This document shows, piece after piece, positions 1,906-63,108 of a stretch of 64,000 nucleotides of DNA (position 1 is the stretch's first letter; every line of letters begins with the position of its first letter). This stretch comes from a virus. Made by a program: the position numbers and the translations under genes. A model generated the notes under the pieces. That model did not search any database. It was not told the DNA's origin and saw only the letters and a list, made by a program, of their open reading frames with translations. The DNA lies in IMG/VR virus record IMGVR_UViG_3300031603_000002, positions 1 through 64,000 of that record. One strand, given 5' to 3'.

Positions 1906-3504
1906 GTGGCCCGGGCGACAGCAACCCATGCGAAGGAGATTGTTCGGTGTGGGCAAGATCCTGTTCATTTCATAAACAAATATGCAATGATCCAGACGCC
2001 TATGAAAGGCACGATCAAGTTCGACACGTACGAATTCCAGGATGAATGTGTTCAATCATTTATTGAGCATCGTTTCAATATCATTGTCAAGGCTCGTCAG
2101 CTTGGCCTTTCAACTGTCACAGCGATCTACGCAGTATGGTTGGCTATCTTCTATCGTGACAAGAACATTCTTGTCATTGCTACGAAGCTGGCGACAGCCC
2201 AGAACTTTATCAAGAAGGTGAAGGTTGCATTGGCAGCTTTGCCGAAATGGTTGGTGCTGCCATCTATAACTGAAAAAACAAAACAGATGGTCGCGTTTAG
2301 CAACGGATCACAAATTAAGGCGATTCCAACGTCAGAAGATGCGGGCCGTTCTGAAGCTTTGTCGTTGCTAATCGTTGACGAAGCTGCGTTCATCCGCGAT
2401 TTTGATACGCTGTGGACCGGCCTGTACTTTACGTTGGCGGAAGGTGGGCGTGCTATTATTATTAGCACTCCGAATGGTACGGGCGGAATGTATCATAAGC
2501 TCGTCGAAGATGCTGAAGCGGGTACAAGCGAATTCAACCTCACGAAGCTAATGTGGCACGCTCACCCGAAAAGAGACGATGCATGGTTAGAAAAAGAAGT
2601 CAAGAACATGACCCCACATGCAATTGCACAGGAATTGATGTGTGACTTTGCAGGTTCAGGAAATACGTTCGTCACTGCCGACATCATTGAGAAGCTTCGC
2701 CTACAGGTTGAACAGCCTATTGAAAGATCTGGCGTTAAAAATGAGATCTGGTGGTGGGCATATCCACAACCGGGGGAAGAGTTTGTGATCTCGGCAGACG
2801 TCTCCCGTGGTGATGCAGCAGATTATTCGTCATTCCAGATTCTAAACAAACATACAGCGGAACAGGTTTGTGAATACCGTGGGAAAATAAGACCAGATCA
2901 ATTCGGTATTTTACTTGCTGAGTACGGCAAGAGGTTCAACAACGCACTAATTTGCCCTGAAAATAACACGTTTGGACAAGGAACAATCCTAAAATTAGTT
3001 GAGCTCGGATATAAAAATCTACATTTCAAATCCCTAAAAGACAAGTTTGATTTGATGTATGGCGACCCAACAACAGCTAGTTTAGGAAAAGTTGGATTCG
3101 TAACAAGCGTAAAAACAAGAGGCCCAATCCTTAGACTGCTTGAGGAACGACTGAGAAATAATACACTGAAGGTTCGTTCGTCGCGGTTCGTCGATGAGCT
3201 AAAAACTTTCGTTATGAAGGGTGATAAGCCCAAAGCGAAAAAGGGTGCATTTGATGATGTCCTGATGGCCATGGCCATTGGAAACTCGCTGATTGAGGCC
3301 GGATCAGAACATGCTGTAACGAAGCATGACACATCGAAAGGTATGCTGGCCGGCTTTGGTGTGAACAAAAGACACAAAGACACGCAGCATGAAGTAACTA
3401 ACGTAAACAATGTCAATCCATATATGAATATGCCGAATGGTGCGTATGGAAGCAGGGGACGACCCGAACACATTCCAAAAGAGTTTTCGTGGGTGCTCGG
3501 ATAA
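1906..3504 (+). CDS. Terminase large subunit (T4 gp17-like)
   Basis: KARQLGLST Walker A, LLIVDEAAF Walker B, ISTPNG, nuclease ISADVSRG and FDDVLMA. Confidence 0.95.
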   Translation: MARATATHAKEIVRCGQDPVHFINKYAMIQTPMKGTIKFDTYEFQDECVQSFIEHRFNIIVKARQLGLSTVTAIYAVWLAIFYRDKNILVIATKLATAQNFIKKVKVALAALPKWLVLPSITEKTKQMVAFSNGSQIKAIPTSEDAGRSEALSLLIVDEAAFIRDFDTLWTGLYFTLAEGGRAIIISTPNGTGGMYHKLVEDAEAGTSEFNLTKLMWHAHPKRDDAWLEKEVKNMTPHAIAQELMCDFAGSGNTFVTADIIEKLRLQVEQPIERSGVKNEIWWWAYPQPGEEFVISADVSRGDAADYSSFQILNKHTAEQVCEYRGKIRPDQFGILLAEYGKRFNNALICPENNTFGQGTILKLVELGYKNLHFKSLKDKFDLMYGDPTTASLGKVGFVTSVKTRGPILRLLEERLRNNTLKVRSSRFVDELKTFVMKGDKPKAKKGAFDDVLMAMAIGNSLIEAGSEHAVTKHDTSKGMLAGFGVNKRHKDTQHEVTNVNNVNPYMNMPNGAYGSRGRPEHIPKEFSWVLG

Positions 3505-3556: not shown

Positions 3557-6500
3557 ATGAGTGAAATCAAAGGGTCGTTATTCACCCGCCTAACAAAATT
3601 GTTCAGATCAGGCCCTGTCGTCCGACGCCGCGTCAAGAACGTCTCAGGTCCAAGTGCATCTACCTCGCTCGAAACTTTCCGCAAAGTTCATAGCAACGTT
3701 TATAATAGCACATTGTCTGCATACGGTTCGTATGATAGAATGTCACGCTATTCGGACTTTTCGGAGATGGAGGCTTGTATAGCAGGAGATACACTTATCG
3801 CTACACCAACCGGGTTCGTCGAAATAAAAGAGCTGGCCAAAATGTATGGGGCTGATGAAACATTTATTGTTTATTCATATGACCATGAGAAGAAACAAAT
3901 CGTTCCTGCATTGGCGAAACAAGCTCGTAAAACAGTGACGGACATGTCGTATAAAGTCACATTCGACTCTGGAAAAGAGTTGATTGCAACCCCAGACCAT
4001 CGTGTAATGCGAAGAGACGGGACATATTGCGAAGTGCAAGCCTTAAAGCCGGGCGATTCGATGATGCCTTTCTATAAAAAAGCGCTTTTTGAAAAAGATA
4101 AAAAGAGCAGCAACGGGTACCAATGGATTTATACGATGGACAAGCCAGGCTCATCGATGAACAACGGGTGGATATCTGAGCACCGTGTTATTGCCGCTTG
4201 GGCAGCCGGCCGAAAAATAAATGAAGGTGAGCACGTTCATCACAAGAATTTTGTGAAAAGCGACAACAGACCAGAAAACTTAGTGATAATGGATGCCAAG
4301 GAACATTTGGCGTATCATGCTATAATCTTGAACGGCAAAAAGTGGGATTACGAGAAGAATGGTGATTGGATTGAAGGGTTCAAAAAGCAACATTCAAGAT
4401 TCATGAAAGAAAATAATCCGGCGCAACGAAAAGACATAACTTTTGCGACAATTCTTCAAGTTTGTGATGCGACGGGATATAATTGGTCACAATTGCAAAG
4501 AACGTTAGACTGCTCTGCTAGCGTAATTAACAATCGTCTTCGAGACAACGGTTTCAATAACTTTACATCTTTTGCTAGAGCGTATGGCCCGACGTGGAAA
4601 AATAACGGCTGGGACAACGCAGGTAGCAAAAATCCAAGATATGACGAATCGTTAACCTTTCAAAATGTTTGTGATGCTTATCATCCAGGAATAAAAAACA
4701 AAGAGTGGGAAACGAACCTAAAAACAACGTCAATGAAGATTCTTGGTCGAGTAAAATCAAACGGGTATGACAGCTTGGCTGATTTCCGCGAAAACTTCAA
4801 CAATCATAAAGTCGTAAGCATAGAACCATACGAAGTGATTGACCTTTATGATATGACGGTCGACGGGTACAAAAACTATGCGACGGACAGCATCATCGTT
4901 CACAACACTCCGGAAATTGGTTCCGCGCTAGACATTTACGCTGAAGAAACCGCGAGCTGCGACGATAAAGGAAAGATTCTCCACATTTACTCCGAGAACA
5001 ATCGAATCCAGGAAATCCTTGGAGAATTATTCTACGACATTCTAAACGTTGACTTCAACTTGACAATGTGGGTACGTAACCTTTGTAAGTACGGAGACTT
5101 CTTTATCTTCAACGACATTTCTCCAGAGTTCGGAATCGTGAATGCATATCCTATCGCGATCAGTGAAATCGAAAGAGAGGAGGGGTTTGATCCTGAAGAT
5201 CCAAGCGCCGTCAGGTTCCGCTGGATTACGCAAGGAAATCAAATCCTTGAAAAATGGCAGGTCTCCCATTTCAGACTATTAGGTAATGACGCATTCTTGC
5301 CATATGGTTCATCGGTTCTAGAATCTGCTCGACGAATTTGGCGCCAACTGATTCTTATGGAAGACGCAATGCTTGTCTACAGGATCATCCGTGCACCCGA
5401 GCGCCGAGTTTTCTACATCGATGTGGGTAACATTCCACCGAACGAAATTGAGAATTTCATGGAAGGTGCCGTCTCGAGCCTAAAACGCCAGCCTGCAATC
5501 GACAAGAACAACGGCAAGATGGATTATCGCTACAACCCATACAGCGTTGACGAGGATTATTTCCTTCCAGTTCGAGGCCAAGAATCAGGAACAAGGATCG
5601 ACACGCTTGCTGGTGGTTCCAACGCCGCCGCAATTGAGGATGTCGAGTACATCCAAAAGAAACTGTTCGCAGCACTAAAAATCCCGAGAGCATATCTTGG
5701 ATACGATGAGGACGTAGGTTCCAAGGCAACGTTGGCGATGGAAGACATCAGGTTCTCTCGCACGATTGCAAAAATTCAGAAGACAATCATCGCGGAGTTC
5801 AATACACTGGCAATGATTCACCTTTATTGTCATGGGTTTGCTGAAGAAGATTTGGCTGATTTCGATTTGAAATTGACAAACCCAAGTTCTGTCGCTCAGC
5901 AACAGAAGCTTGAACTGATTCGAACAAGGTTTGATATTGCTAACAGCGCACCTGAGGGTGTTGTTGATAGAAATTACGTCCGCCGCGATGTTTTTGGTTT
6001 AACACCAACACAAATTGAACAAATCAAAGCAGGTCGTATCGCGGATAAGTTGGAAGACATGGAAGTCGAAGCTGCCGGTGAACCAGCTGACGATGCACCT
6101 GCCGGCGGCGATGATGATATGATGGACGACGGTCCTGCCGACAGCGCCGACGACCTATTCGCAGGTGACCACCCAGGTGGGTCTTTGTTAACTGCTCTTC
6201 CAGGAACGGGAAATGAGTTTGAACTTGAGAGTGATGAAGACGATGACATGTTGAATTTGTCAATTGATGATATTGATGCACCTGAAAAAGCTGCAAAGAA
6301 AATCACGAATGTTTTCGGTGGTCCGATCAAGGCAAATAGAAAAGTCAAAGGTGGCGCTGAACAAACGCATATGCCAGACTTTGGAAAGATGGTGAGTGTA
6401 GGCAAGGCTGGTCGTTCACAGGATTCGCTAAACAAACCATTCGATGCGGAATCACTATTTAACCTAGGCGAGTCTGAAGGGCGAACTTCAATTATGGCGC

Positions 6501-6619
6501 CAAAAATGACGCGAAGCTTAGAAAGAATGTTCACATCGATGGGAAACTCGATAAGTAGTAATAGGACAGAACTTTTATCTGAAGATCTGTTGAATGAGAA
6601 TTTGAACGAAGGGGATTGA
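3557..6619 (+). CDS. Portal protein (T4 gp20-like) interrupted by an intein
   Basis: PEIGSALDIYAEE, LMEDAMLVYRIIRAPERRVFYIDVGN, EDYFLPVRG; acidic C-tail. Confidence 0.95.
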   Translation: MSEIKGSLFTRLTKLFRSGPVVRRRVKNVSGPSASTSLETFRKVHSNVYNSTLSAYGSYDRMSRYSDFSEMEACIAGDTLIATPTGFVEIKELAKMYGADETFIVYSYDHEKKQIVPALAKQARKTVTDMSYKVTFDSGKELIATPDHRVMRRDGTYCEVQALKPGDSMMPFYKKALFEKDKKSSNGYQWIYTMDKPGSSMNNGWISEHRVIAAWAAGRKINEGEHVHHKNFVKSDNRPENLVIMDAKEHLAYHAIILNGKKWDYEKNGDWIEGFKKQHSRFMKENNPAQRKDITFATILQVCDATGYNWSQLQRTLDCSASVINNRLRDNGFNNFTSFARAYGPTWKNNGWDNAGSKNPRYDESLTFQNVCDAYHPGIKNKEWETNLKTTSMKILGRVKSNGYDSLADFRENFNNHKVVSIEPYEVIDLYDMTVDGYKNYATDSIIVHNTPEIGSALDIYAEETASCDDKGKILHIYSENNRIQEILGELFYDILNVDFNLTMWVRNLCKYGDFFIFNDISPEFGIVNAYPIAISEIEREEGFDPEDPSAVRFRWITQGNQILEKWQVSHFRLLGNDAFLPYGSSVLESARRIWRQLILMEDAMLVYRIIRAPERRVFYIDVGNIPPNEIENFMEGAVSSLKRQPAIDKNNGKMDYRYNPYSVDEDYFLPVRGQESGTRIDTLAGGSNAAAIEDVEYIQKKLFAALKIPRAYLGYDEDVGSKATLAMEDIRFSRTIAKIQKTIIAEFNTLAMIHLYCHGFAEEDLADFDLKLTNPSSVAQQQKLELIRTRFDIANSAPEGVVDRNYVRRDVFGLTPTQIEQIKAGRIADKLEDMEVEAAGEPADDAPAGGDDDMMDDGPADSADDLFAGDHPGGSLLTALPGTGNEFELESDEDDDMLNLSIDDIDAPEKAAKKITNVFGGPIKANRKVKGGAEQTHMPDFGKMVSVGKAGRSQDSLNKPFDAESLFNLGESEGRTSIMAPKMTRSLERMFTSMGNSISSNRTELLSEDLLNENLNEGD
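3776..4906 (+). mobile_element. Intein (377 aa) with HNH homing endonuclease, in portal
   Basis: Starts CIAGDTLIAT, block B ATPDHRV, HNH VHHKNFVKSDNRPENL, ends YDMTVDGYKNY...IIVHN followed by Thr. Confidence 0.93.
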
Positions 6620-6624
6620 TCATA

Positions 6625-7458
6625 ATGACAAAGCACAACAAAAAACGCAATGTCGGTCTAATACACGAACAACTGATTAGATACGTTGCCAGCTCACTAA
6701 TCGCACGTGACAAGAAATCAGCAGAGAAAGCAATCGCGATTATCACGAAGCACTTCAAGCAAGACTCGGAGCTCTTCCGTGAGTTTCGACTTTTCAATGC
6801 ATTGGTAAATCTGCCGGTTGGTTCACGCCCGTTGGCCGAGCGGATTTTGTTGGAGAGCAAAAAGTCTGCGACAACACACAGCTCTCAGAAACTCCGAAAA
6901 GAGAAGTCAAGTCTAATCAAGGACATCAATCTTGGTCTATCGCAGTCCGCACGGTTTTATGACATCAAAATTGAAAGCTATAGGTTGTACGCAACCGTCC
7001 AGACAATGCTAAATGAGTGGCGCGGTGTAGATTCACTCTCCTTGACGAACAAGGCAAAGTACGAAGAGAAAATTGTGGAATGGTTGGCTCGTCCAACTAC
7101 ACAAGTTTTGAAAGAGACATTTGAGGCCGATCCGCTGGTCCGTAAGTTGATGTTTCAAAAGTTCGAAGAGAAATATAAAGAGCACCTGAGCGAACAACAA
7201 CAGACCGTTTTGGAAGCAGCAATCCTTGGTGACGAAACAAATTTTAGCAATATCATTTGTGAGATCAAGGAGAAGGCGCTTCTCACGGTTGCCGAATTCA
7301 AAAAAACATGCGACAACGATGTACTCCTTGAAAAAATCGATGGCGTGAAGAACAGAATTGAAAGATTGTCAGAAGCAAAATCTGACGACACGGTAGCCAA
7401 GACTTTACACTTGGTGCATTTACTCGATGAAATGGAGACCAAAAATGAGCAAAAGTAG
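6625..7458 (+). CDS. Conserved-looking head-module protein between portal and protease
   Basis: KHNKKRN N-terminus, helical; position only. Confidence 0.6.
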   Translation: MTKHNKKRNVGLIHEQLIRYVASSLIARDKKSAEKAIAIITKHFKQDSELFREFRLFNALVNLPVGSRPLAERILLESKKSATTHSSQKLRKEKSSLIKDINLGLSQSARFYDIKIESYRLYATVQTMLNEWRGVDSLSLTNKAKYEEKIVEWLARPTTQVLKETFEADPLVRKLMFQKFEEKYKEHLSEQQQTVLEAAILGDETNFSNIICEIKEKALLTVAEFKKTCDNDVLLEKIDGVKNRIERLSEAKSDDTVAKTLHLVHLLDEMETKNEQK

Positions 7459-8050
7459 AACGTTACTGACCGAGTGGCTGAAGTTTGATTACACGCCCGA
7501 TCAGATCAAAGAAAGCCGTGAACAACACGGCGGCAAAATTGTGATGAAGGGTATCCTGCAAAAGGCAGATACATTGAATCAAAACGGCCGTTTGTATCCA
7601 GAGTCAATTCTCTCCCGCGAGGTAAGAAATTACCAAAAGTTTATTACTGAAAATCGCGCACTCGGAGAATGTGATCATCCAGATTCATCTGTCGTTGAGC
7701 TAAAAAACTCGTCGCACATCATTCGTAAAGCGTGGATGGATGGGAAAACATGCTATGGTCTTGTTGAACTGTTAGACACGCCCATGGGAAAGATCCTGCA
7801 GAGTCTCGTTGAGTCAGGAGTCACGCTAGGCATCTCTTCACGAGGTGTCGGATCAACAAGCAGAGAAGGCGATTACGATGTTGTCCAGGACGATTTTCAA
7901 CTGATTTGTTGGGACTTCGTTAGCGAGCCATCTACACCGGGCGCTTTCATGATGAAAGAAGGCCGCGATTTCACCCGGGCGGATTTGAACCGTCACTTTA
8001 CGAAATCAGATCGTATTGATAGGGTTTTCAATGACATTTTGGAGTGGTAA
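7445..8050 (+). CDS. Prohead core protease (T4 gp21-like)
   Basis: NQNGRLYP, ALGECDHP, GISSRGVGS, WDFVSEPSTPGA. Confidence 0.93.
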   Translation: MSKSRTLLTEWLKFDYTPDQIKESREQHGGKIVMKGILQKADTLNQNGRLYPESILSREVRNYQKFITENRALGECDHPDSSVVELKNSSHIIRKAWMDGKTCYGLVELLDTPMGKILQSLVESGVTLGISSRGVGSTSREGDYDVVQDDFQLICWDFVSEPSTPGAFMMKEGRDFTRADLNRHFTKSDRIDRVFNDILEW

Positions 8051-12302: not shown

Positions 12303-14189
12303 ATGTCTACATTTAATCTAGAAATGCTAACCGAGGGGATTCAAAAACGTCACGTCGGAGCACAAAACAAACTACTCATCGAGAAGTGGAACCGTACTGG
12401 TCTTCTTCGCGGGCTTGGCGGCACGAAACGAGAGAACATGGCACGCTTGCTCGAAAGTCAGGCTGGCCAGGTAATCAGGGAGGCATCGTCAATTTCGACT
12501 GGCGGCGCAAACGGAACTTCGTCAGGTGACCTTCGTGGTTTTACAAACATCGCATTCCCATTGGTTCGCCGAGTCTTCGGTGGATTGATTGCGAACGACC
12601 TTGTTTCGATTCAGCCAATGAGCCTTCCTTCCGGACTGCTCTTCTACATGGACTACACTTACGGTGGAGACATGGCGGGTAACGTCGGAGCTGCGGTGCC
12701 TTACGCATCAGGTTCGTCAATCTACAACAGCCCAACCGGCAAAGGCATTCAGTCTGGTTCGCAGGGTGTCGGTGGTCAGTACGACCTAGCCGGTTCAGGT
12801 TTCTCACGTGTGTACGGTGTAACAGCCGCAACAACGTTGCTAACCTCGGGCGCTTTCGGCAGCGGAAACACATTTGTTGTTTCCAAGGCCCTGGCTGCAA
12901 CCGGTTCCGACGGTAAACTGCTACAGTACGATCCGCAGATCACAAACGCAATTGAGAACAACGCCGCTGGACCAGGCGAGAAGGTTGGTAACGGTGTATA
13001 CTCGGCGGTCGTGGTTTCGTTGGCTTCAGGCGGCACACTCTTTGGTGATGCTGACCTTACGTTGTCTAAGGACTTCTCGATGGGGCCAACCAACCCATAC
13101 AAGATTGTTGGTAACGACACCAATGGTAACGCAATCCAGGGTGGTAGCACAGCTAACATTCGTCGATTGAACCAGATGGGTGTGTGGGATGGTAACACAT
13201 TCACGCCTAACGGGCTCGTAAGAGCTGGTGAAGCTGGCGCTGCACTCTTGATGATCGTTTCTGGTGCAAACGTGGCTACTGTCGCGGCGGCATCTGTTAT
13301 ACTTGCTAAGCCATTGGCTGCAGCACTTGATTCGGCAGCGAACACAGGCGACACCTTGGTGATTCCTTCGTTCGAGTCTGATTTCGGAGTCAACCCTTCA
13401 CCGGCAATCCCTGAAATCGACATCAAGATCGAGTCAATCGCTGTTGTTGCTGAAACTCGTAAGTTGCGTGCACGCTGGTCGCCAGAAATGGCACAGGACC
13501 TGAATGCTTACCACAGCCTTGACGCTGAGGTTGAGTTGACACACATCCTGTCCGAGCAGATCGCAATGGAGCTTGACCGAGAAATCTTGAATGACTTGCT
13601 GACACAGGCTGGAGCCGCGCGCTTCTACTGGTCACGTAGTCCAGGCAAGTTCCTCAACAAGCAGACTGGTCAAGAGGTCAACCGTACAAACTCACTGACT
13701 CCTGGTCCGGCATTCACCGGTACAGTACGAGAGTGGTACGAGACTCTTATCGAGACCATCATCGATGTTGCTAACGAGATCCATCGTAAGACACTTCGTG
13801 GTTCGGCTAACTTCATCGTTGTCGGCCCGGATGTTGCAACAATCTTCGAGTCTTCAATCCTGTACAAGCCAAGCTTCTCGCTTGACGCTGACGGACAGGT
13901 TGGCCCGATGGTTATCGGTGCTGAGAAGGTTGGTACCCTGTCGAATCGCTTCTCGGTTTACAAGGACCCTTACTTCCCACGCAACCAGATTCTGGTTGGA
14001 TACAAGGGCGGAAGCTACCTGGAGACAGGATACGTCTACGCTCCTTACGTCCCGTTGATCGTGACTCCTACCATCTTCGCACCCGAAGACTTCACACCTC
14101 GAAAGGGCGTGATGACTCGGTACGGTAAGAAAATGGTGAGAAATGACTTTTATGGCACGGTAACTTGCCTTGACATGAATGTGATATAG
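12303..14189 (+). CDS. Major capsid protein (T4 gp23-like)
   Basis: FPLVRRVF, VSIQPMSLP, ETRKLRARWSPEMAQDLNAYH, YAPYVPL, PRKGVMTRYG. Confidence 0.97.
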   Translation: MSTFNLEMLTEGIQKRHVGAQNKLLIEKWNRTGLLRGLGGTKRENMARLLESQAGQVIREASSISTGGANGTSSGDLRGFTNIAFPLVRRVFGGLIANDLVSIQPMSLPSGLLFYMDYTYGGDMAGNVGAAVPYASGSSIYNSPTGKGIQSGSQGVGGQYDLAGSGFSRVYGVTAATTLLTSGAFGSGNTFVVSKALAATGSDGKLLQYDPQITNAIENNAAGPGEKVGNGVYSAVVVSLASGGTLFGDADLTLSKDFSMGPTNPYKIVGNDTNGNAIQGGSTANIRRLNQMGVWDGNTFTPNGLVRAGEAGAALLMIVSGANVATVAAASVILAKPLAAALDSAANTGDTLVIPSFESDFGVNPSPAIPEIDIKIESIAVVAETRKLRARWSPEMAQDLNAYHSLDAEVELTHILSEQIAMELDREILNDLLTQAGAARFYWSRSPGKFLNKQTGQEVNRTNSLTPGPAFTGTVREWYETLIETIIDVANEIHRKTLRGSANFIVVGPDVATIFESSILYKPSFSLDADGQVGPMVIGAEKVGTLSNRFSVYKDPYFPRNQILVGYKGGSYLETGYVYAPYVPLIVTPTIFAPEDFTPRKGVMTRYGKKMVRNDFYGTVTCLDMNVI

Positions 14190-14323: not shown

Positions 14324-15109
14324 ATGAGATCTTGCAAAATATGTGGAAAGGAATTTACTAGACTAGCTGCTCATGTCAATCGTTCACATAATGTTGGCTA
14401 TGAAGGATATATGTTGGAATTTGAATATAACGGAATCAATCCAAAATGCAAATGTGGTTGTGGCAACAACACTCCGTTTACACGCTCACATGGGATGGGA
14501 TTTTTAAGCTATATTCATGGGCACTCTGCCAGAATTGAAGGGCGACTGACTGCAGAATCTAAGCGCAAAATCGGCGAAAAGAACAGAAAAAATATGAAAC
14601 GGTATATGACGGAAAATCCTGAGCATGCAAAGAAAAAAGCAAAACAAATGTACTCGGCAATCATACCAGAGGTCCGTAAACGATCTGCGAAAACAAACGC
14701 GGAAAATTGGCAGAAACCGCATATGGCAGAGAAGCGAAAGGAAGCGACAATCCGTGCAATCGAACTCAGCGAGCAAGGCATCATCGGGCCGCAGGCGCCA
14801 TTCAAGACCGAGTGGAAGTTCAACCCGTTCACACAACAAAATGAGTATATGCATTCCGGCTGGGAGTCGCGGTTTCTAGACGAGTGTATCGAACAGGATG
14901 AATCAGTCACTAAAAAGCACGAAATCCGCATCCCATACAATGACCCAAACGGTGTCGAGAGAACCTACGTACCAGACTTCCTGTCAATCTCAGGCTCAAC
15001 ACTCTACGAAGTCAAGGGCCAGGAAAATGACACCGACCCGCTAAAATACCAAGCCGCCATAAGCTGGTGCTCCCAGAACGACAAGAAATTCTGCGTCATC
15101 CGGTTCTAA
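14324..15109 (+). CDS. Free-standing homing endonuclease-like protein (Zn finger, NUMOD-like linker, TnsA-like PD-(D/E)xK)
   Basis: CKIC..H...H, CKCGCG, SGWESRF, RTYVPDFL, LYEVKG. Confidence 0.75.
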   Translation: MRSCKICGKEFTRLAAHVNRSHNVGYEGYMLEFEYNGINPKCKCGCGNNTPFTRSHGMGFLSYIHGHSARIEGRLTAESKRKIGEKNRKNMKRYMTENPEHAKKKAKQMYSAIIPEVRKRSAKTNAENWQKPHMAEKRKEATIRAIELSEQGIIGPQAPFKTEWKFNPFTQQNEYMHSGWESRFLDECIEQDESVTKKHEIRIPYNDPNGVERTYVPDFLSISGSTLYEVKGQENDTDPLKYQAAISWCSQNDKKFCVIRF

Positions 15110-16419: not shown

Positions 16420-17124
16420 GTGATGAGCAAACCCATGTTTTTGTTGACGCTTCGCGTTGTAGGTACGGACATTGCGTACTCAACGAAGTTGCGCCCAGTG
16501 ATTAGCAATGTCAAAGCAATCGCTGAAGAAATCCGCAATATTGATTTGGAAAGATTCGTTCAAGGTGCATTGGACCACGGCGGTGGTGCCGATGAATGCG
16601 TCAAAGAATGGAACGCACAATACGCAAAAGTTTTCGGTGGCAACAATCACTGGCCAGTGGGCCATTCCTGGCCGTCACCAGATCGCGGTGATGTTGCTCA
16701 GCAGCGCGCAGAAATGTATGCTAACGAACTGACATACAAGTATGCAAAAGTATCAGGTGCTGAGAATTGGTTCGTCGTATCGACGTATATCGAGCCGTAT
16801 GCGCTGAATCCGGACTGGACAAGACGTGACTTATATGAATATGGCCACATTTTAGGTTGCGGATACAAAACTCGTGATGAAGCCTGGGAAGCCATGAAGT
16901 ATGGTAAACTCGGTGCCCCCGGTACAATCATAGAAAGAAAGGACTTGAAAGCATACACGGAATGCAAAACGCAACAAGAGTACCATAACCTGTTATGCAC
17001 GAAATTTGAAATCCCAGCGATTCCAATTGAAGAGGGTGCAGACGAGCTCATCGACAACATGATGAAGCGCCTCGGGATGAACAAGATAGAATACATAGAC
17101 GAAGACGTAGAGGAAGAAAAATGA
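16420..17124 (+). CDS. Hypothetical protein
   Basis: TATAAT at 16399-16404, GGAGG RBS. Confidence 0.65.
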   Translation: MMSKPMFLLTLRVVGTDIAYSTKLRPVISNVKAIAEEIRNIDLERFVQGALDHGGGADECVKEWNAQYAKVFGGNNHWPVGHSWPSPDRGDVAQQRAEMYANELTYKYAKVSGAENWFVVSTYIEPYALNPDWTRRDLYEYGHILGCGYKTRDEAWEAMKYGKLGAPGTIIERKDLKAYTECKTQQEYHNLLCTKFEIPAIPIEEGADELIDNMMKRLGMNKIEYIDEDVEEEK

Positions 17125-17510
17125 CACCACGAGATTTTGCATACTGGCTACAAGGCTTCTTTGAGGTTGCCGACACAGACGATGTCAAGCCTGAACAGAT
17201 AAGAATGATAAAGGAACATCTATCATTGGTGCTTACAAAAGTAACGCCGACGATGGAGGAACTCAAAGAAGAACCCAAGGTTGATTATCCGCCATTTAGG
17301 ATTTCACAGGATCCGTTTGAGGGCAACCGCTTGATTTGCTCTGCAGTCGCCGACGTAAAATCGACAACAGGACTTCCCACGGAATGGGTTGCTGCATTTC
17401 CATGGGTGAAGACAGATTCTGGCGGAAATGTGGTGAGCAACATGCAACCCTCTTCGCCAATCGGGAAATACGCCGTCGACACAGGAATAAAATGTCAACT
17501 AACATGCTAA
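17121..17510 (+). CDS. Hypothetical phage protein (MTPRDFAYWLQGFFE N-terminus)
   Basis: ATGA overlap with upstream gene; motif familiar from phage ORFs. Confidence 0.6.
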   Translation: MTPRDFAYWLQGFFEVADTDDVKPEQIRMIKEHLSLVLTKVTPTMEELKEEPKVDYPPFRISQDPFEGNRLICSAVADVKSTTGLPTEWVAAFPWVKTDSGGNVVSNMQPSSPIGKYAVDTGIKCQLTC

Positions 17511-18181
17511 ATGAAGATAACAAGGATGATGTTACGGTGACGCAAGAGGTGTTAAGTAAGAAACATCAGCACCTAATCAGCAAATGGAGCCGCACGCAAA
17601 TCCTGGATAATTTGTCCCAGGAAAAAGCCCTCAATTACGCAATCCTTTTTGAGAACCAATCGAATCTTATTATGGGACAGGTTGCTGACATGCACTCGAG
17701 GCATCGATCCTGCCCACGCTGGTGGACACAGGAAGCGTTTGATTTGGCACAACAGAATGTTTTCCAATTGATTAGACGAGTTTTTGACGGTGTCGATTTT
17801 GAATGGAAAGCAATGGAGACTCCGTATAATGAAGCTGCCGGTTGCGCCGAGACATCAAAACTAAGGACGAGGTTCTCTGTGTACGATTATGAACTCGCGG
17901 TGGCAAACGAAAAATTCAGTCGTATGGACGGTCACTTGATTTGGTTTATAAACATGGCTGATCAGTTCGTCGAAGAATTCAATCACATTGTACTTCAGGA
18001 TAAAACGACGCTCGCGACCTATAAGAACTACGACGGCCCAGTAATAAGGCATATTCATACACCATTTCAGGCCGGAAGCATTTCTTATTCGGATTTCTTC
18101 CCACCGGAAAAACGAAACAAAATCTACGGCACCATGTGGCGAGGAATCACAGCTCCTGCAAAAAAAGTTGAGCTCGTGTAA
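17492..18181 (+). CDS. Truncated, diverged MCP paralogue (N-arm/P-domain core)
   Basis: LISKWSRTQIL, FQLIRRVFDG, AETSKLRTRFS, GTMWRG align in order to MCP motifs. Confidence 0.75.
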   Translation: MSTNMLNEDNKDDVTVTQEVLSKKHQHLISKWSRTQILDNLSQEKALNYAILFENQSNLIMGQVADMHSRHRSCPRWWTQEAFDLAQQNVFQLIRRVFDGVDFEWKAMETPYNEAAGCAETSKLRTRFSVYDYELAVANEKFSRMDGHLIWFINMADQFVEEFNHIVLQDKTTLATYKNYDGPVIRHIHTPFQAGSISYSDFFPPEKRNKIYGTMWRGITAPAKKVELV

Positions 18182-18330
18182 GTTTCGTGCTGGTATGATA
18201 AAATATACTCATAAAGCACCCGTCATGATATTTATGATCACGGCAGGTTGGTCACGCGACAATATCTTGTGCTCTGCTTAGGTAACCTACCAACGACGTG
18301 TTTAGAGCGTACAGAAGAGGACACAGGTAC

Positions 18331-18813
18331 ATGAAAATCACAAAAAGAAGCCTAGCGAGGCTTGTTACAGAAGCCAAACGCTTAAATGAAACATCTGATG
18401 GTTCAGAATACCGATATTGGATGTCATCAAAGGTTTGGGGGCTCGATACACTAAAAGAACTTCCAAGTCGACAGGCATCACGAGCCCGCGAAACATTTCC
18501 GGAATATTCCGCGTGGGATCTTTATGATAATGAGAATATACCCGACGATCTTGTAACAAATTTCACAGGCCGGCAACCTTTACCGAGTGTATTCATTATT
18601 TCCGGGAGGAACATTGATATTCTTGTTGACACATCAGGATTTGATTACGCTCGATATTCAGCGAAGATTGGTGATGGCTCCCTGGCAGATGACGATGTGA
18701 CTGATTCAGATGAATATATAACAGGTCGTGAAGATGCCCAGTATGGCGAGCCCCGCGATACATATGCAGGCCCGAGATACCAGTTAGCGTACGACACGTA
18801 CGAGGGCAAATAA
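18331..18813 (+). CDS. MKIT-leader protein
   Basis: MKITKRSLARLVTEAKRLNE; ATATTTA at 18228. Confidence 0.7.
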   Translation: MKITKRSLARLVTEAKRLNETSDGSEYRYWMSSKVWGLDTLKELPSRQASRARETFPEYSAWDLYDNENIPDDLVTNFTGRQPLPSVFIISGRNIDILVDTSGFDYARYSAKIGDGSLADDDVTDSDEYITGREDAQYGEPRDTYAGPRYQLAYDTYEGK

Positions 18814-19784
18814 TGAAACGACGTTATCCGAAACTTGTCGATATTCTTTTTGAGGATGTGACTGATGATATTGCCAAGGCGGCCAAAGGTGGCCCTGGTG
18901 CTGTTCGTTCATTCGTAGACAATTATCCGGATCCTGATGAGCTGAAGGCAGCCCTTGCTGGCACCCATGATAATGTCAAAACTGACGACACGACGAACGT
19001 ATCAGAACCTACAATGAGAAAAATCAGTGATTTCAAGCCAACCCAGAAAGAAATCGATATGATGAAGTCTGCGGCGTTCCCATTGGGAAGTGCAAAGGCT
19101 CTTGCGAAAGCAATTACATCGAACACGACAGATGCACCCGGCTCAATTACAGTCTCAGGCGATGATGTGATCGATGGGCATCACAGATGGTCAGGTGTTT
19201 GGGCAATTAGCGGACAAAGTGGTATGATCGGCGCTGAGGATTTGGATCTCCCCGGAGATACAACTCAGAAACTCGCCGCCGCGCAACTTGCCATCGCAGC
19301 GCATAAGGACGTAAACCAGGACATGCCAACAGCATCTGGCAAGATCGAAAATAACATTCTAGGCAAATCATCAGGCGAAATTGAAAAGATGATGGTGGCA
19401 AACATAGGCCGCCAGGTAGATCGAAGGGCCCCTGGGCCAATGTTAAATGACGAAATGGTTGCAAACTCATCGAAGGATAAGGTTATTGCCAAGTGGGCTG
19501 GATTCAAGCTCGGTGCTGATGCCAATGAAATAAAGGCAAAAATTATCAAGAAGATTTCGGCGAACCTGGCAACTGTGCCAGGTAACCCAAAGGCACCAGC
19601 CCGAGAGGATATGCCTCAACTAGACCACAAATCGATTGGTGGGAAGGCTGCAAAAGCTGCAATTTATGACAAATTGCAAAACGCTGAAATCAATATCAAA
19701 AACCCGCTGAGCCCGCAGAAAGAATCCGCAGAGCAGGATGGAAACCTATTGACAGAGCGCTGGTGCCGATTGGCTAGCTGCTAA
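18813..19784 (+). CDS. ParB/Srx-like domain protein
   Basis: FKPTQKEI...VIDGHHRW; N-terminal LVDILFE; C-terminal ERWCRLAS. Confidence 0.6.
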   Translation: MKRRYPKLVDILFEDVTDDIAKAAKGGPGAVRSFVDNYPDPDELKAALAGTHDNVKTDDTTNVSEPTMRKISDFKPTQKEIDMMKSAAFPLGSAKALAKAITSNTTDAPGSITVSGDDVIDGHHRWSGVWAISGQSGMIGAEDLDLPGDTTQKLAAAQLAIAAHKDVNQDMPTASGKIENNILGKSSGEIEKMMVANIGRQVDRRAPGPMLNDEMVANSSKDKVIAKWAGFKLGADANEIKAKIIKKISANLATVPGNPKAPAREDMPQLDHKSIGGKAAKAAIYDKLQNAEINIKNPLSPQKESAEQDGNLLTERWCRLASC

Positions 19785-20149
19785 GATATATATTTCTGGA
19801 CCTTTTTATATCGATAGCATTTACTCGGATCAGGGACCGGCGAGTTCCTGGCGTTAAATGTAGCACTTGGCATCCTATTTTTATACACGACGTAAAAATC
19901 GTCATCCTTTGCCATCTCAACAAGCTCATCAAGTGACAACATTCCATCTGTGTGCGATGAAACACTGACTGCGATTGCCTGAAGCGGAGCGTCCTCGGCA
20001 TCGTAAAAAACGAGGCATGACGGCAGCATTGATTGCATGACATTCGGTGTTATCATAGTTGTTTTGCCTAGATACATTTCCATATCAACATAAACAGGTT
20101 CTCCTTTGTAGTTCGGAAGTTCAGCCGGCGTGATTATTTTGTATTTCAT
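19781..20149 (-). CDS. Hypothetical protein
   Basis: Likely start MKYKIITP with GAGG RBS; divergent from 20205. Confidence 0.5.
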   Translation of the reverse strand: MKYKIITPAELPNYKGEPVYVDMEMYLGKTTMITPNVMQSMLPSCLVFYDAEDAPLQAIAVSVSSHTDGMLSLDELVEMAKDDDFYVVYKNRMPSATFNARNSPVPDPSKCYRYKKVQKYIS

Positions 20150-20204
20150 GGTTTTATTTCCTCTTGAATCATAGTATAATATTTTCATACAGAGGTAAAA
20201 GAAA

Positions 20205-20711
20205 ATGATAAAACCATATCCAGCTCCAGAACCCACAGTCATGAGGAAAATTCTTGATGGGAACCGACCGGCTGATTATGTCACATATTGGCATCGAATG
20301 CCGGGAAGGTATGTTTTGAAAGAGACAGGCGAGGATTGCGGAGATGAGGAAACACGCCCGCTATTTTATGGCACGGTGACAGAGTGGTATTCGCTTTTAG
20401 GCGAGGCAGTCTACGATGCTTGGTCGAAAATAACAGATAAGGGCCTTACAGGGATGACGTCAGGAATCATCGTGTCCAAGGATATTCAAACAGTCCTTGA
20501 GACAACGCATTGGTACCGCGGAATATATCATTACTGTAGTTGTTGCACAGCCAAAACTGAGTGGCCAGTGATTGGAGTGATTGACGGGATCCCCGTCTAC
20601 GCCAGCGATGAAGTAGGAAAAAAGGTCGTTGTGTTCATGACGGGTTGCGAGAAGTGTGATCTTGAAGCCATCGCCGAGGTAAGAATTAAGGGAATGAGTA
20701 GGATCAGCTAA
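20205..20711 (+). CDS. Stand-alone paralogue of the MCP C-terminal (A-domain) region
   Basis: YWHRMPGRYVLKETG / FYGTVTEWYSLL / IIVSKDIQTVLE versus MCP YWSRSPGKFLNKQTG / FTGTVREWYETL / IVVGPDVATIFE. Confidence 0.8.
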   Translation: MIKPYPAPEPTVMRKILDGNRPADYVTYWHRMPGRYVLKETGEDCGDEETRPLFYGTVTEWYSLLGEAVYDAWSKITDKGLTGMTSGIIVSKDIQTVLETTHWYRGIYHYCSCCTAKTEWPVIGVIDGIPVYASDEVGKKVVVFMTGCEKCDLEAIAEVRIKGMSRIS

Positions 20712-21427
20712 GAGTCGGCGGCAATCGAGCGACCAAATAGCTGACGCAACGTTTTCCACGCAGGCAATTCCATTTGGCTGATGAACTGGTGATTAGTTTT
20801 TATCGCAGTGTCAACGATTGAAAAACGATGTTTTCTGTCACGTAATGATAACATGTTGATCCCTAGCAAAGAGTGTTCAGGGTTTTCGTGAGCTGATTTT
20901 GCAGCGCCCGACATACGGCGCAGCTCCACATCAAGCTTCATTCCAGGAAATTTGTTTAACCTTCTTCTGAAATCATCTTGTTCCCTTCTTTCCCATGCAG
21001 AACCGTCGCTGTACCAGGCGTCTCTATCGAGTTCATCAACCGACATTGATTTGCCCAGAAATTTGAGTTCACCATTCTGTTTGATTTTCTCCCACACATC
21101 GTTTTTGATAAGAACCTCAGTCCCCCAATCATATCGATGTAATCCACCGCTGGCTGAAATTGCCCACTCAGGTACCTGGTATGCATAGACGTTCCCACGA
21201 ATGCCATGATTGGCACGAATACCACGTGGGTTCGTTGACATAAAGATTCCGCCGTCTTCGTTCTTCGGCAGCCAATCCCGATCCCACCCTTTCCCACGCC
21301 TCTCAGGACGAGGCTGCACAGGTCGCTTGTCAATACGATAAAGCGTTCGACTGTTTTTTCTCGCGCCCCGTATCTCTTTGAGGATCGCCCTAACGAATGT
21401 TTCAAGTTGAAGATTATCGTGCGTCAT
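20708..21427 (-). CDS. Putative ADP-ribosyltransferase-fold protein with leader-like N-terminus
   Basis: LETFVRAILKE; TLYR, IFMSTNP, TEVLI (R-S-E pattern); ATATTTA on - strand at 21433-21439. Confidence 0.5.
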   Translation of the reverse strand: MTHDNLQLETFVRAILKEIRGARKNSRTLYRIDKRPVQPRPERRGKGWDRDWLPKNEDGGIFMSTNPRGIRANHGIRGNVYAYQVPEWAISASGGLHRYDWGTEVLIKNDVWEKIKQNGELKFLGKSMSVDELDRDAWYSDGSAWERREQDDFRRRLNKFPGMKLDVELRRMSGAAKSAHENPEHSLLGINMLSLRDRKHRFSIVDTAIKTNHQFISQMELPAWKTLRQLFGRSIAADS

Positions 21428-21501
21428 GCTTATAAATATTTGATATGTTACATTTCGCTCGCAGTAAGATATTTATTTTTGAACTTCAATGGAGAAGAAA
21501 C

Positions 21502-21906
21502 ATGCCTAAAGATACTAAAGCAAAGAACACACCAAAAAAGACAGAATCGAAAGCGACACCAAAAACTGCCACTCCGGTACATACAGCTCCGAAGCCTTCT
21601 GCTCCGAAGTCGGAAACACCAAAAGTTGCTACCGTAGCAAAACCTGTTGTCCCGAAGGCAGTGGCACCGGCGGCACCAGATCCGAAAGTCCGTAACAAGA
21701 AAATTCATGAGGTATGCAAAGATATTATGGACAACGAGTTTTGGGCTCTTTCGCACGCGGAAGCTCACCCAATCGCTATAAAGATGGTTGATGAGAGTGC
21801 AGAGCATATTCGAACCGTTGTGAAATATTTCTCATTCCATGAACGAGAAAAACTGTGCAATGAGTTGGCACAAAAGCATAATCTTACTCGTTCAAAATGG
21901 GTGTAA
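21502..21906 (+). CDS. Protein with Lys/Ala/Pro/Thr-rich disordered N-terminus
   Basis: GGAG RBS; ATATTTA at 21469. Confidence 0.6.
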   Translation: MPKDTKAKNTPKKTESKATPKTATPVHTAPKPSAPKSETPKVATVAKPVVPKAVAPAAPDPKVRNKKIHEVCKDIMDNEFWALSHAEAHPIAIKMVDESAEHIRTVVKYFSFHEREKLCNELAQKHNLTRSKWV

Positions 21907-21959
21907 ACGATTGATGTGGTTTCTGTTGTTTTACGAACCACTCAATACTTATAATAGAA

Positions 21960-22208
21960 ATGCTTAAAGAAAAAACCAGAGCTGATTCAATGCAAGAAAG
22001 CACCGCTAAGAAACCCCGCGAATTCAAAACAACGAGGCAGTTTACCCAGCTTCGAAAGATGATCGAAACGATCACTGATTTTGAAAACCAACAACTTCAA
22101 AAAGCGAAGTTATACGATAAGATCGTAGAAATCTTGGGGTGTGCAGAATCAACCGCCGAAAAAGTTAAGCGAATTGAGCAAGTTATAACAATACAACAGG
22201 CGGCATGA
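21960..22208 (+). CDS. Hypothetical protein
   Basis: ATACTTA at 21945. Confidence 0.5.
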   Translation: MLKEKTRADSMQESTAKKPREFKTTRQFTQLRKMIETITDFENQQLQKAKLYDKIVEILGCAESTAEKVKRIEQVITIQQAA

Positions 22209-61260: not shown

Positions 61261-61466
61261 GACCACCTGTTTGCGATAAATGCGAACTGATTATGCAACC
61301 AACGACTGATCAGACATCCCCTGATATTCATCATTATGTCTGCCCAAAATGCACGACCCAAAACTGTCACACGTTCAGCAATCGACCAATACTAACACGT
61401 CAAAACTATCGTAAGATTGTGGCTGACACGTTCCACTTTCTGGAGAAGCATGCTGAAGGAAAATGA
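61254..61466 (+). CDS. Small zinc-ribbon protein
   Basis: CDKC...CPKC; AAGGAG RBS. Confidence 0.6.
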   Translation: MLGPPVCDKCELIMQPTTDQTSPDIHHYVCPKCTTQNCHTFSNRPILTRQNYRKIVADTFHFLEKHAEGK

Positions 61467-62691: not shown

Positions 62692-63108
62692 ATGGATATC
62701 CCCGGGTTTGAAATTAAGGTAAACGTTCCGCCAAAGCCTCGAAAGCTAAGAACGAAATGGGCCAGCGAACCAATCACGGACACACCCGAGGGGCTATCAG
62801 AAACTCTGAAAAAAGATACTATAAGAGATATAATATCTCAACAGATAGCTGACGAAATTGATGCTGAGATTGCAGCTGATTTCGCTGAAAAACTTGGTAC
62901 ACTCCACGTGCGATTTGAGGTCGTCCCGAGAAAGGGTATGATGGTGAATTACTGCCATCCTATGAACGAAGAGAAGATGCCAGGATTGATTCTGCGCGAA
63001 TGGGATCCAAACGTCAAGAACTCTGGACAAATCCTGCTTGGTGGTGGAACCAAATTCGCTTTCGCAAGTGATGACAACGCTGAGCAATGGTTCGAGGAAG
63101 TTAAATGA
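62692..63108 (+). CDS. Fusion of MCP spine-helix fragment and small beta-barrel domain
   Basis: RKLRTKW...IISQQIADEIDAEI versus MCP RKLRARW...ILSEQIAMELDREI. Confidence 0.7.
   Translation: MDIPGFEIKVNVPPKPRKLRTKWASEPITDTPEGLSETLKKDTIRDIISQQIADEIDAEIAADFAEKLGTLHVRFEVVPRKGMMVNYCHPMNEEKMPGLILREWDPNVKNSGQILLGGGTKFAFASDDNAEQWFEEVK

What the first reader, a model, noticed from the sequence alone, without database searches (positions are those of the whole stretch)
20205..20711. Stand-alone A-domain-like MCP paralogue, complementary to ORF 17492
Seen: YWHRMPGRYVLKETG, FYGTVTEWYSLL, KITDKGLTG, IIVSKDIQTVLE, VIGVI..IPVY and EVRIKGM track MCP YWSRSPGKFLNKQTG, FTGTVREWYETL, EIHRKTLRG, IVVGPDVATIFE, KVGTL..FSVY and TVTCLDM. 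This is largely the part that ORF 17492 lacks. Inference: either a split second capsid protein or two single-domain decoys.
Basis: partly seen in the sequence, partly recalled or inferred. Interest (0 to 1): 0.78.

Follow-up and report, generated by a model that had tools for sequence, protein, structure and literature searches.

The report
Stand-alone capsid A-domain protein family
A roughly 320-kb T4-like phage carries an intact, selected 168-residue gene that is only the central "A-domain" of its own major capsid protein; it belongs to a widespread, unnamed family in large environmental phages and may act as a capsid mimic.

Summary
ORF 20205-20711 (168 aa) is homologous to residues about 428-566 and 611-628 of the window's gp23-type major capsid protein (MCP, 12303-14189). 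The pairwise BLASTP E-value is 7e-16. The AlphaFold model has pLDDT 89 and matches T4 gp23 at Z 10.6.

- **Real gene:** dN/dS is 0.09 against a close relative, and a syntenic orthologue exists in a more distant relative.
- **Family:** it belongs to a large, unnamed family of A-domain-only proteins (130-240 aa). All of them lack the N-arm, E-loop and P-domain hairpin.
- **Origin and rate:** on a tree, all 40 A-only proteins fall outside one clade holding all 32 MCP A-domains. Orthologues are 35% identical where the MCP domain is 88%.
- **What is kept:** motifs that include the helix which forms a subunit interface inside T4 capsomers.

The split-capsid reading is weakly supported. ORF 17492 does lack the A-domain, but 17492-like genes are confined to this lineage, the two genes are not an operon, and the A-only proteins have lost MCP-conserved aromatic residues beside the excised hairpin.

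My best guess (0.35) is a mimic of the capsomer-forming face that decoys or blocks host capsid sensors. An assembly modulator is the main rival. Earlier scan notes concern this same genome only.

The parts
20205..20711 (+). Stand-alone HK97 A-domain protein (168 aa), paralogue of the gp23-type MCP. The P-domain hairpin is replaced by a G-C-x-x-C turn, and there is an extra CSCC in the variable loop.
20150..20204 (.). Divergent intergenic region with a TATAAT-like element and the RBS of ORF 20205. The roughly 50 bases before the ATG are near-identical to relative L003, although synonymous sites there are near saturation.
19781..20149 (-). Divergently transcribed 122-aa gene of unknown function. 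It keeps this position next to the A-only gene in L003 (65% identity) and L125 (42% identity).
20708..21427 (-). Convergent 239-aa gene of unknown function whose stop codon overlaps that of ORF 20205. It is present in L003 and was not detected in L125.
17492..18181 (+). 229-aa MCP paralogue. It keeps the N-terminal arm and the E-loop base plus spine helix, and lacks the insertion domain and the A-domain.
   Evidence: AlphaFold uninformative
12303..14189 (+). Full-length gp23-type major capsid protein (628 aa), the parent fold.
62692..63108 (+). A further MCP-fragment mini-protein (138 aa) matching MCP 369-431, which is the E-loop and spine helix.

Best explanation
ORF 20205 encodes a functional, autonomously folding copy of only the axial (A) domain of the phage's HK97-fold, gp23-type major capsid protein.

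Shown:
- The N-arm, E-loop, spine helix (apart from its last turns) and P-domain are gone.
- The P-domain beta-hairpin has been cut out cleanly and replaced by a short G-C-x-x-C turn.
- The gene belongs to an old, fast-evolving family of A-domain-only proteins in large environmental T4-like phages.

Inferred: the family keeps the elements that line the subunit-subunit interface at the capsomer core. These are WSRxPGxFVNKxTG, FxGTVREWYETLxETIxD and the short [DE][VI]xTILE helix. It has dropped the MCP-conserved segments next to the P-domain. It therefore most likely works as a soluble mimic of the 'penton/hexon-forming' face of unassembled MCP.

The mechanism I commit to is that it occupies host immune sensors that recognise that face, or competes for them, so that newly made MCP does not trigger abortive defence. 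It would be one member of a set of MCP-fragment proteins in this genome.
For: **Identity**
- Sequence, alignment and structure all place it in the MCP A-domain.

**It is a real, selected gene**
- dN/dS is 0.093 against L003, 0.107 between two distant orthologues, and 0.18 for the second paralogue.
- It has its own RBS and a strongly conserved upstream region.

**Family**
- Complete proteins of about 130-240 aa run from just before the YWSR motif to the MCP-like C-terminus ..V.VLDMNII. Many sit on contigs above 100 kb.
- One or two copies lie directly downstream of the MCP in another lineage.
- There are two paralogues in the 93%-complete relative G001.

**Age and rate**
- All 32 MCP A-domains form one clade (SH-aLRT 97), and all 40 A-only proteins fall outside it on long branches.
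- A-only orthologues are 35% identical where the MCP A-domain is 88%; in the closer pair the figures are 85% and 99.4%.

**Retained and lost columns**
- The retained TILE helix aligns to the T4 gp23 helix that carries N381 and A387.
- PMC9546572 places those two residues in the inter-subunit interface of the capsomer.

**Plausible target**

**Context**
- The gene lies in a fast-evolving accessory stretch whose neighbours are 30-42% identical, while the flanking structural genes are 74-87% identical.
- It lacks the ATA(C/T)TTA motif found upstream of the structural genes.
- Other small ORFs of the same genome carry other MCP segments.
Against: - No binding or anti-defence data exist, and no MCP-derived decoy has been described in the literature I searched.
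- A mimic of an immune trigger could itself set off the sensor.
- The host and its defence repertoire are unknown.
- In the L102 lineage the A-only genes sit in the slot directly after the MCP gene, which fits a morphogenetic role equally well.
- The promoter argument is weak. The portal gene also has a TATAAT-like element rather than ATA(C/T)TTA, and the sigma-70 scan is at chance level.
- Mapping of the retained motifs onto the capsomer interface rests on a sequence alignment to T4 gp23, not on coordinates.
Confidence: 0.35

Rival explanations
1. Assembly modulator or shield. The free A-domain binds the capsomer-forming face of newly made MCP, as a neighbouring subunit would. This would hold the very large (628 aa) MCP in a soluble, capped state, or tune the pentamer/hexamer choice or capsid size. 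It could also hide that face until the protein reaches the prohead.
For: - Interface-lining elements are retained.
- In the L101/L102/L105/L107/L112 lineage, one or two A-only genes lie 30-50 nt downstream of the MCP gene, the position gp24 has in T4.
- T4 gp24-bypass mutations show that small A-domain changes switch hexamer and pentamer formation (PMC9546572).
- These phages have MCPs of 590-670 aa and genomes of roughly 320-390 kb.
Against: - The A-only protein changes 5-20 times faster than the MCP surface it would have to fit.
- The complete genomes of the nearest published relatives have only the MCP: LR756508.1, Flavobacterium phage immuto, Microcystis phage Mel-JY01 and LR756511.1.
- Only 8 of the 150 MCP loci examined have an A-only gene within 10 kb.
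- In the window the gene sits outside the head operon.
Confidence: 0.25
2. Split second capsid (vertex) protein. ORF 17492 (N-arm, E-loop base, spine helix, possibly P-strands) and ORF 20205 (A-domain) would reassemble non-covalently into one gp24-like HK97 subunit.
For: - The two have complementary domain content.
- Both are under purifying selection: dN/dS 0.11 and 0.09.
- Both are present in G000, G001 and L004.
- G001 has two A-less and two A-only paralogues.
- No intact gp24-like second full-length MCP was found in G001.
Against: - 17492-like proteins were found only at 75% identity or more, plus one paralogue in G001, while A-only proteins occur in several lineages.
- L125 has the A-only orthologue but no 17492-like gene in the interval between the MCP and the A-only gene.
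- The genes are 2 kb apart, with three genes between them, one on the opposite strand.
- MCP-invariant aromatic residues beside the excised hairpin are lost in A-only proteins.
- The match of the ORF 17492 C-terminus to P-domain strands is not significant (E 7.4), and its model failed (pLDDT 38).
Confidence: 0.07
3. Weapon against competitors. The free A-domain co-assembles with, and poisons, the capsomers of related co-infecting phages, or of satellites that use a similar MCP. The phage's own MCP would be insensitive.
For: - Capsomer-interface elements are retained while the rest evolves fast.
- Paralogues are multiple and divergent.
- The genomic neighbourhood is an accessory, variable one.
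Against: - MCP A-domains in this clade are so conserved (68-99% identity) that discriminating self from non-self would be hard.
- Nothing in the data indicates how the phage's own MCP would be immune.
- There is no precedent in the literature I searched.
Confidence: 0.1
4. Non-functional debris: a decaying partial duplicate of the MCP gene, for example a by-product of homing-endonuclease activity near the capsid gene.
For: - Homing-endonuclease-like genes lie next to the MCP (14324-15109) and next to another fragment gene in G001.
- Several MCP fragments are scattered in the genome.
Against: - dN/dS is 0.09-0.18.
- The frame is intact in all relatives.
- The boundaries are domain-precise in 40 proteins.
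- The isolated domain folds confidently in prediction.
- The family is older than the MCP clade sampled.
Confidence: 0.02

Closest known systems
T4-type major capsid protein gp23 (Pfam PF07068, HK97 fold)
   Same: It shares ancestry and fold with the A-domain. The motifs WSRxPGxFVNKxTG, FxGTVREWYETLxETIxD, TILE and the C-terminal DMNII are shared.
   Different: - It lacks the N-terminal arm, insertion domain, E-loop, spine helix (apart from its last turns) and the whole P-domain.
- It is 168 aa against 628 aa.
- ORF 20205 itself gives no Pfam hit at E <= 0.1.
- It cannot form a shell subunit on its own.
T4 vertex protein gp24 (PDB 1YUE), the classical gp23 paralogue
   Same: It is a diverged MCP paralogue kept alongside the MCP. 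In one lineage the A-only genes occupy the position immediately after the MCP gene. The structural match has Z 8.0.
   Different: gp24 is a complete HK97 subunit (N-arm, P-, A- and I-domains) that forms pentamers. ORF 20205 is one domain only. No full-length second MCP was detected in the 93%-complete relative.
MCP A-domain as the ligand of bacterial STAND sensors Avs7/Avs8/Avs10 (bioRxiv 10.64898/2026.01.04.697583)
   Same: [quoted passage not shown] That is the domain, and probably the face, that this protein preserves.
   Different: No phage-encoded A-domain decoy is described there. Whether this protein binds any sensor is unknown, and the host is unknown.
Phage 'genes in pieces' created by homing-endonuclease insertion (for example split nrdA in Aeromonas phage Aeh1, split gp43 and the topoisomerase genes 39/60 in T4-like phages; from my own knowledge, not checked here)
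   Same: Two separately encoded polypeptides together cover the domains of one ancestral protein, and endonuclease-like genes are nearby.
   Different: - Here the cut is not linear. The A-domain is an excised internal module that has also lost its P-domain hairpin.
- The pieces are not adjacent.
- The A-only piece exists in lineages with no detectable partner.
Small uncharacterised proteins of cultured jumbo phages with a similar predicted fold (BFVD: Erwinia phage Y3 A0A2H4IBH4, Pseudomonas phage Noxifer A0A1Y0SV83, PaBG S5VZG9)
   Same: They are proteins of 106-155 aa whose predicted structures match the ORF 20205 model (Foldseek probability 0.75-1.0, TM on target 0.36-0.59).
   Different: The matches are marginal (E 1e-3 to 6e-2), there is no detectable sequence similarity, and these phages do not have gp23-type MCPs of this clade. 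I did not follow them up.

Membership tests
HK97-fold major capsid protein, gp23 type (PF07068) | A-domain with central beta-sheet and two helices, homologous to the gp23 A-domain | tested here: met
   BLASTP E 7e-16 to the window MCP. VIA-align Z 10.6 to T4 gp23, and all of the top 50 entries are HK97-fold proteins.
HK97-fold major capsid protein, gp23 type (PF07068) | P-domain (spine helix plus long beta-strands) and E-loop, which build inter-capsomer contacts | tested here: not met
   The alignment shows that MCP 1-427 and about 567-610 have no counterpart. The model has only the last turns of the spine helix, at residues 10-18.
HK97-fold major capsid protein, gp23 type (PF07068) | Reaches the Pfam gathering score for PF07068 | tested here: not met
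   No Pfam family at E <= 0.1 for ORF 20205. Some other A-only family members do carry a PF07068 hit.
T4 gp24-type vertex protein | Full-length HK97 subunit able to form pentamers | tested here: not met
   It is 168 aa and consists of the A-domain only. Oligomeric state could not be tested.
Two-piece (split) capsid subunit with ORF 17492 | The partner gene co-occurs wherever the A-only gene occurs | tested here: not met
   L125, L102, L105, L101, L107, L112, L144 and L197 have A-only genes with no 17492-like ORF in the DNA held. Only short N-arm-like fragments turned up elsewhere, in G003 and G004. Most of these records are incomplete, so absence is not proven.
Two-piece (split) capsid subunit with ORF 17492 | Physical complex that recreates the native A/P-domain interface | not testable with these tools
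Stand-alone A-domain family (defined here) | Complete ORF of about 130-240 aa that starts just before YWSRxPG, ends at the MCP-like C-terminus and lacks the P-domain hairpin | tested here: met
   Alignments A1 to A3 and the sequences. ORF 20205 groups with P0001, P0002, P0003 and P0007, which share an invariant G-C-x-x-C.
Anti-defence decoy or mimic of an immune trigger | Binds a host sensor and lowers its activation by the authentic trigger | not testable with these tools
   The host is unknown. There are no PADLOC hits in or around the gene. The only indirect support is from the literature.

The most novel reading that the evidence does not exclude
Huge T4-like phages may encode a modular set of capsid-protein mimics. 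The set would comprise a free A-domain (this gene and its paralogue), A-less N-arm proteins, and small proteins carrying the E-loop/spine helix, the Gol-like segment or a P-domain strand. Together these would blunt the many bacterial immune sensors that detect unassembled major capsid protein (Avs7/8/10, CapRel, Lit and others). That would be a new class of anti-defence in which the phage copies pieces of its own most conserved antigen.
Probability: 0.28. Interest if true: 0.88.

Novelty: new variant of a known kind. Interest (0 to 1): 0.7.

Why it matters
The HK97 fold is the most abundant protein fold in the virosphere, and its A-domain has so far been known only as an insertion inside the P-domain of a complete capsid subunit.

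A widespread family of selected genes coding for the A-domain alone shows that the domain can fold and be useful by itself. That bears on how the fold arose.

Bacterial immune receptors were recently reported to grip exactly the capsomer-forming face of the A-domain. These proteins are therefore concrete, testable candidates for capsid-derived immune decoys, or for a new type of capsid assembly factor in very large phages.

Standard annotation (Pfam, PHROGs, PADLOC) labels ORF 20205 as hypothetical, so the family is currently invisible.

Tried and rejected
- Complex prediction for 17492+20205.
- The look-up of encoding contigs.
- The look-up of sequencing runs.
As a result, no interaction, context-by-identity or expression test could be run.

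**Results that gave nothing usable**
- The AlphaFold model of ORF 17492 from a 6-row alignment was useless (pLDDT 38).
- Pfam, PHROGs and PADLOC gave nothing for ORF 20205, ORF 17492 or their immediate neighbours.
- tblastn of ORF 20205 and of family member P0182 against 50,697 phage records gave no match. blastn of the region also gave nothing. The P0182 result is surprising, because MCPs should match it, so I do not lean on it.
- A profile search of PDB sequences with A1 found nothing.
- The sigma-70 promoter and terminator scan of 17000-22000 was at chance level.
- The ESM Atlas search gave only unnamed or loosely capsid-like clusters below a useful score.
- IMG/VR scans with family profiles mostly returned full-length MCPs.

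**Ideas rejected**
- Intron or intein splitting: the genes have separate RBSs and promoter regions, and one intervening gene is on the opposite strand.
- Silent cassette for gene conversion of the MCP: the A-only protein is only 24% identical to its own MCP across the aligned A-domain, too divergent to recombine, and it is selected as a protein.
- Homology between the two different downstream convergent genes of the two paralogues: none found.
- Packaged cargo: ORF 20205 lacks the MKIT..L..LI.E leader that earlier notes report on other proteins. I checked this only by eye.

Full report
**Setting**

The window is the first 64 kb of a 96.6-kb IMG/VR virus record that CheckV rates 28% complete. 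It carries a T4-like morphogenetic module:
- large terminase (1906-3504);
- a portal with an HNH insertion (3557-6619);
- prohead protease (7427-8050);
- a 628-aa major capsid protein (MCP) at 12303-14189, which matches Pfam Gp23 at E 1.5e-77.

A close relative, G001 (IMGVR_UViG_3300022902_000004), is 318 kb and 93% complete, and its MCP is 92% identical. The phage is therefore a 'jumbo' T4-like phage of about 320 kb. The nearest published MCPs are 44-51% identical over the C-terminal 198 residues. They belong to the uncultured huge phages LR756508.1 and LR756511.1, Flavobacterium phage immuto and Microcystis phage Mel-JY01.

**The observation**

ORF 20205-20711 is an intact 168-codon frame with a GAGG ribosome-binding site. 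The overlapping minus-strand ORF really starts at 20149 (MKYKII..., conserved in relatives). This leaves a 55-nt divergent intergenic region.

- BLASTP aligns residues 28-105 to MCP 442-522 at 36% identity, E 7e-16.
- A multiple alignment with relatives extends the match to the C-terminus. It shows that MCP residues about 567-610 are simply absent.
- The AlphaFold2 model is confident (pLDDT 89.4, pTM 0.85).
- The best structural matches are exclusively HK97-fold capsid and encapsulin proteins. T4 gp23 (7vrt) and the jumbo phage S6 MCP lead at Z 10.6, and gp24 (1YUE) has Z 8.0.

The protein is thus the A-domain of the HK97 fold, preceded by the last turns of the spine helix. The P-domain hairpin has been excised.

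**It is a working gene**

Against the G001 copy (85% amino-acid identity), dN/dS is 0.093 at dS 0.95. Two more distant orthologues give 0.107, and the second paralogue pair gives 0.18. ORF 17492 gives 0.11. Core structural genes nearby give 0.015.

The roughly 50 bases upstream of the start codon are essentially identical between the window and G001, even though synonymous sites are near saturation.

**Orthologues and family**

A search of 1.84 billion representative proteins returned 77 hits. The best were proteins of the same size that align over nearly their whole length: P0001 (80% identity), P0002 (36%), P0003 (34%) and P0007 (28%). After these came full-length MCPs of 550-670 aa that match only in their A-domain.

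P0002 lies on metagenome contig FLOH01001144.1 (locus L125) in conserved synteny, so it is a true orthologue. The order there is MCP, endonuclease-like gene, ParB-like genes, the same divergent 122/139-aa neighbour, the A-only gene, and then the adaptor/neck genes. Between these two phages:
- the MCP is 81.5% identical overall, and its A-domain region is 88% identical;
- the flanking structural genes are 74-87% identical;
- the A-only protein is only 35% identical.

P0003 represents a second paralogue. It sits between a glycosyltransferase gene and a PD-(D/E)XK nuclease gene in both L124 and G001, so G001 has two A-only genes.

Profile searches and inspection of sequences show a large family of complete proteins of 130-240 aa. 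All start a few residues before YWSRxPGKFVNKxTG and end at the MCP-like C-terminus ..V.VLDMNII. Many are on contigs of 50-315 kb, and none has a functional name.

In another lineage (L101, L102, L105, L107, L108, L112; MCP about 59-68% identical to the window's), one or two A-only genes lie 30-50 nt downstream of the MCP gene.

Of the 150 loci that hold a complete MCP with up to 10 kb on each side, 8 have an A-only gene in the same locus. The complete genomes of the four nearest published relatives have only the MCP.

**Origin and rate**

[quoted passage not shown] All 40 A-only proteins lie outside it on long branches. No A-only protein groups with the MCP of its own genome.

A single old origin is therefore not excluded, and recent repeated birth from the resident MCP is unlikely. 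Long-branch effects cannot be ruled out on 158 columns.

**What is kept and what is lost**

Column statistics show that both groups conserve:
- W-S-R-x-P-G-x-F-V-N-K-x-T-G;
- F-x-G-T-V-R-E-W-Y-E-T-L-x-E-T-I-x-D;
- T-I-L-E;
- G-x-L;
- the C-terminal D-M-N-I-I.

Segments that are nearly invariant in MCPs but free to vary in A-only proteins are IHRKTLRGSANF, KDPYF, and the run V-R-x-D-F-Y-G-T-V-T, which flanks the excised hairpin.

In the alignment of the window MCP to T4 gp23, the TILE helix corresponds to the short gp23 helix holding N381 and A387. PMC9546572 states that these gp24-bypass positions lie in the interface between neighbouring subunits within a capsomer.

The family therefore appears to keep the intra-capsomer face and to have given up the contacts towards the P-domain. 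This mapping is an inference from a sequence alignment, because I had no coordinates.

C-x-x-C motifs occur in 8 of the 40 A-only proteins within the aligned columns, and in none of the 32 MCP A-domain regions. The ORF 20205 subgroup has an invariant G-C-[DE]-x-C exactly where the hairpin was removed. ORF 20205 also has CSCC in the variable loop. A small zinc site that stabilises the isolated domain is a reasonable but untested idea.

**ORF 17492 and the split model**

ORF 17492 (229 aa) matches three parts of the MCP:
- the N-terminal arm, MCP 18-95, at E 4e-8 and hhalign probability 96%;
- the E-loop base and spine helix, where CAETSKLRTRFS aligns with VAETRKLRARWS, at E 0.032;
- the P-domain strands, only at noise level.

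It lacks the A-domain, so the two ORFs are indeed complementary.

G001 also has a second A-less paralogue of 176 aa that ends in a clearer P-strand motif. It therefore has two A-less and two A-only genes and no full-length second MCP, which is suggestive of the split model.

Against the split model:
- 17492-like proteins were found only at 75% identity or more, plus that one paralogue.
- L125 has no such gene in the interval between the MCP and the A-only gene.
- The A-only family is much more widely distributed.
- The genes are separated by three others, one of them on the opposite strand.
- The aromatic residues that MCPs conserve at the A/P junction are not kept.

The direct test, a multimer prediction, could not be run, and the ORF 17492 monomer model failed.

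**Wider pattern**

The same genome has further small ORFs that carry single MCP segments:
- 62692-63108 matches the E-loop and spine helix (E 1e-7).
- A 107-aa ORF at G000 75543-75866 ends in YLESGFVYAPYVPLEVTP. It has a counterpart next to the A-only gene in L125.
- There is a weak match of MCP 95-134 at 61684-61800 (E 0.01).

Short N-arm-like fragments also occur in two records of the L102 lineage. Earlier first-stage notes on this same genome had listed these fragments and proposed decoys. I treated the notes as leads and re-derived the matches.

**Mechanism**

The following is shown: this is a selected, autonomously folding A-domain protein from an old, fast-evolving family, and it retains the MCP motifs listed above.

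The following is inferred: it acts through the capsomer-forming face. Two kinds of partner are plausible for that face.
- **The MCP itself.**

Several features tilt me towards a decoy or blocker of capsid sensing, at about 0.35:
- fast evolution;
- multiple divergent paralogues;
- the accessory-region context;
- absence of the ATA(C/T)TTA motif that precedes the structural genes. That motif occurs 20 times against 9.7 expected and never upstream of 20205;
- the company of other MCP-segment proteins.

An assembly modulator or shield is next (0.25), supported by the MCP-adjacent position in another lineage. An anti-competitor poison (0.10), a split vertex subunit (0.07) and debris (0.02) follow.

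**Novelty**

Full-text searches found no description of stand-alone A-domain proteins, or of MCP-derived decoys, in phages. Domain libraries do not recognise ORF 20205.

A structure search of viral models gave marginal matches to small uncharacterised proteins of the cultured jumbo phages Y3, Noxifer and PaBG. These might mean the idea is broader. I did not follow them up.

Noticed in passing
window 3557-6619: The portal gene is 1020 aa. The portal match covers residues 583-850, and several HNH-endonuclease families match residues 130-285. This suggests an endonuclease or intein-like insertion, or a fusion, in the portal N-terminal half.
   Followed up: no
window 14324-15109; L125 3582-5021; L124 6421-7446; L008 260-1144: Zinc-finger/endonuclease-like (homing-endonuclease-like) genes lie directly after the MCP gene and next to another MCP-fragment gene in relatives.
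   Followed up: partly
window 62692-63108; window 61417-61782; G000 75543-75866 (L013 1267-1590): Three more small ORFs carry single MCP segments: the E-loop/spine helix, a weak match to MCP 95-134, and a C-terminal P-domain strand YLESGFVYAPYVPLEVTP on an unrelated N-terminal part.
   Followed up: partly
L008 1231-1761 (G001 about 303.6-304.1 kb): A second A-less MCP paralogue (176 aa) has a clear N-arm and a P-strand/MRYG C-terminus. G001 therefore has two A-less and two A-only genes.
   Followed up: partly
window, 20 sites, e.g. 12276, 10476, 22560, 25736, 33311, 36827: The motif ATA(C/T)TTA occurs 20 times against 9.7 +/- 3.4 expected. It sits 20-40 nt upstream of many structural genes and is a candidate late-promoter element. 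A second class of genes, including 3557, 14324, 16420, 20205 and 49266, has TATAAT instead.
   Followed up: partly
window 18813-19784; L125 6935-7921 and 7928-8878: A ParB/sulfiredoxin-like protein with a DGHHRW motif lies between ORF 17492 and ORF 20205. It is duplicated in tandem in the L125 relative.
   Followed up: no
L102 10598-10680: Two tight GC hairpins (GATCC-TTCG-GGATC and CTCCC-GGTAGA-GGGAG) follow the MCP stop codon, before the first of the two tandem A-only genes. They may be an attenuator or an RNA-stability element.
   Followed up: no
BFVD hits of model m46ad580565d4: Small uncharacterised proteins of the cultured jumbo phages Erwinia Y3 (125 and 129 aa), Pseudomonas Noxifer (138 aa) and PaBG (146 aa) give marginal fold matches to the free A-domain.
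   Followed up: no
P0154, P0175, P0129 (232-237 aa): Some A-only family members carry a shared N-terminal extension of about 100 aa, of unknown nature, in front of the A-domain.
   Followed up: no
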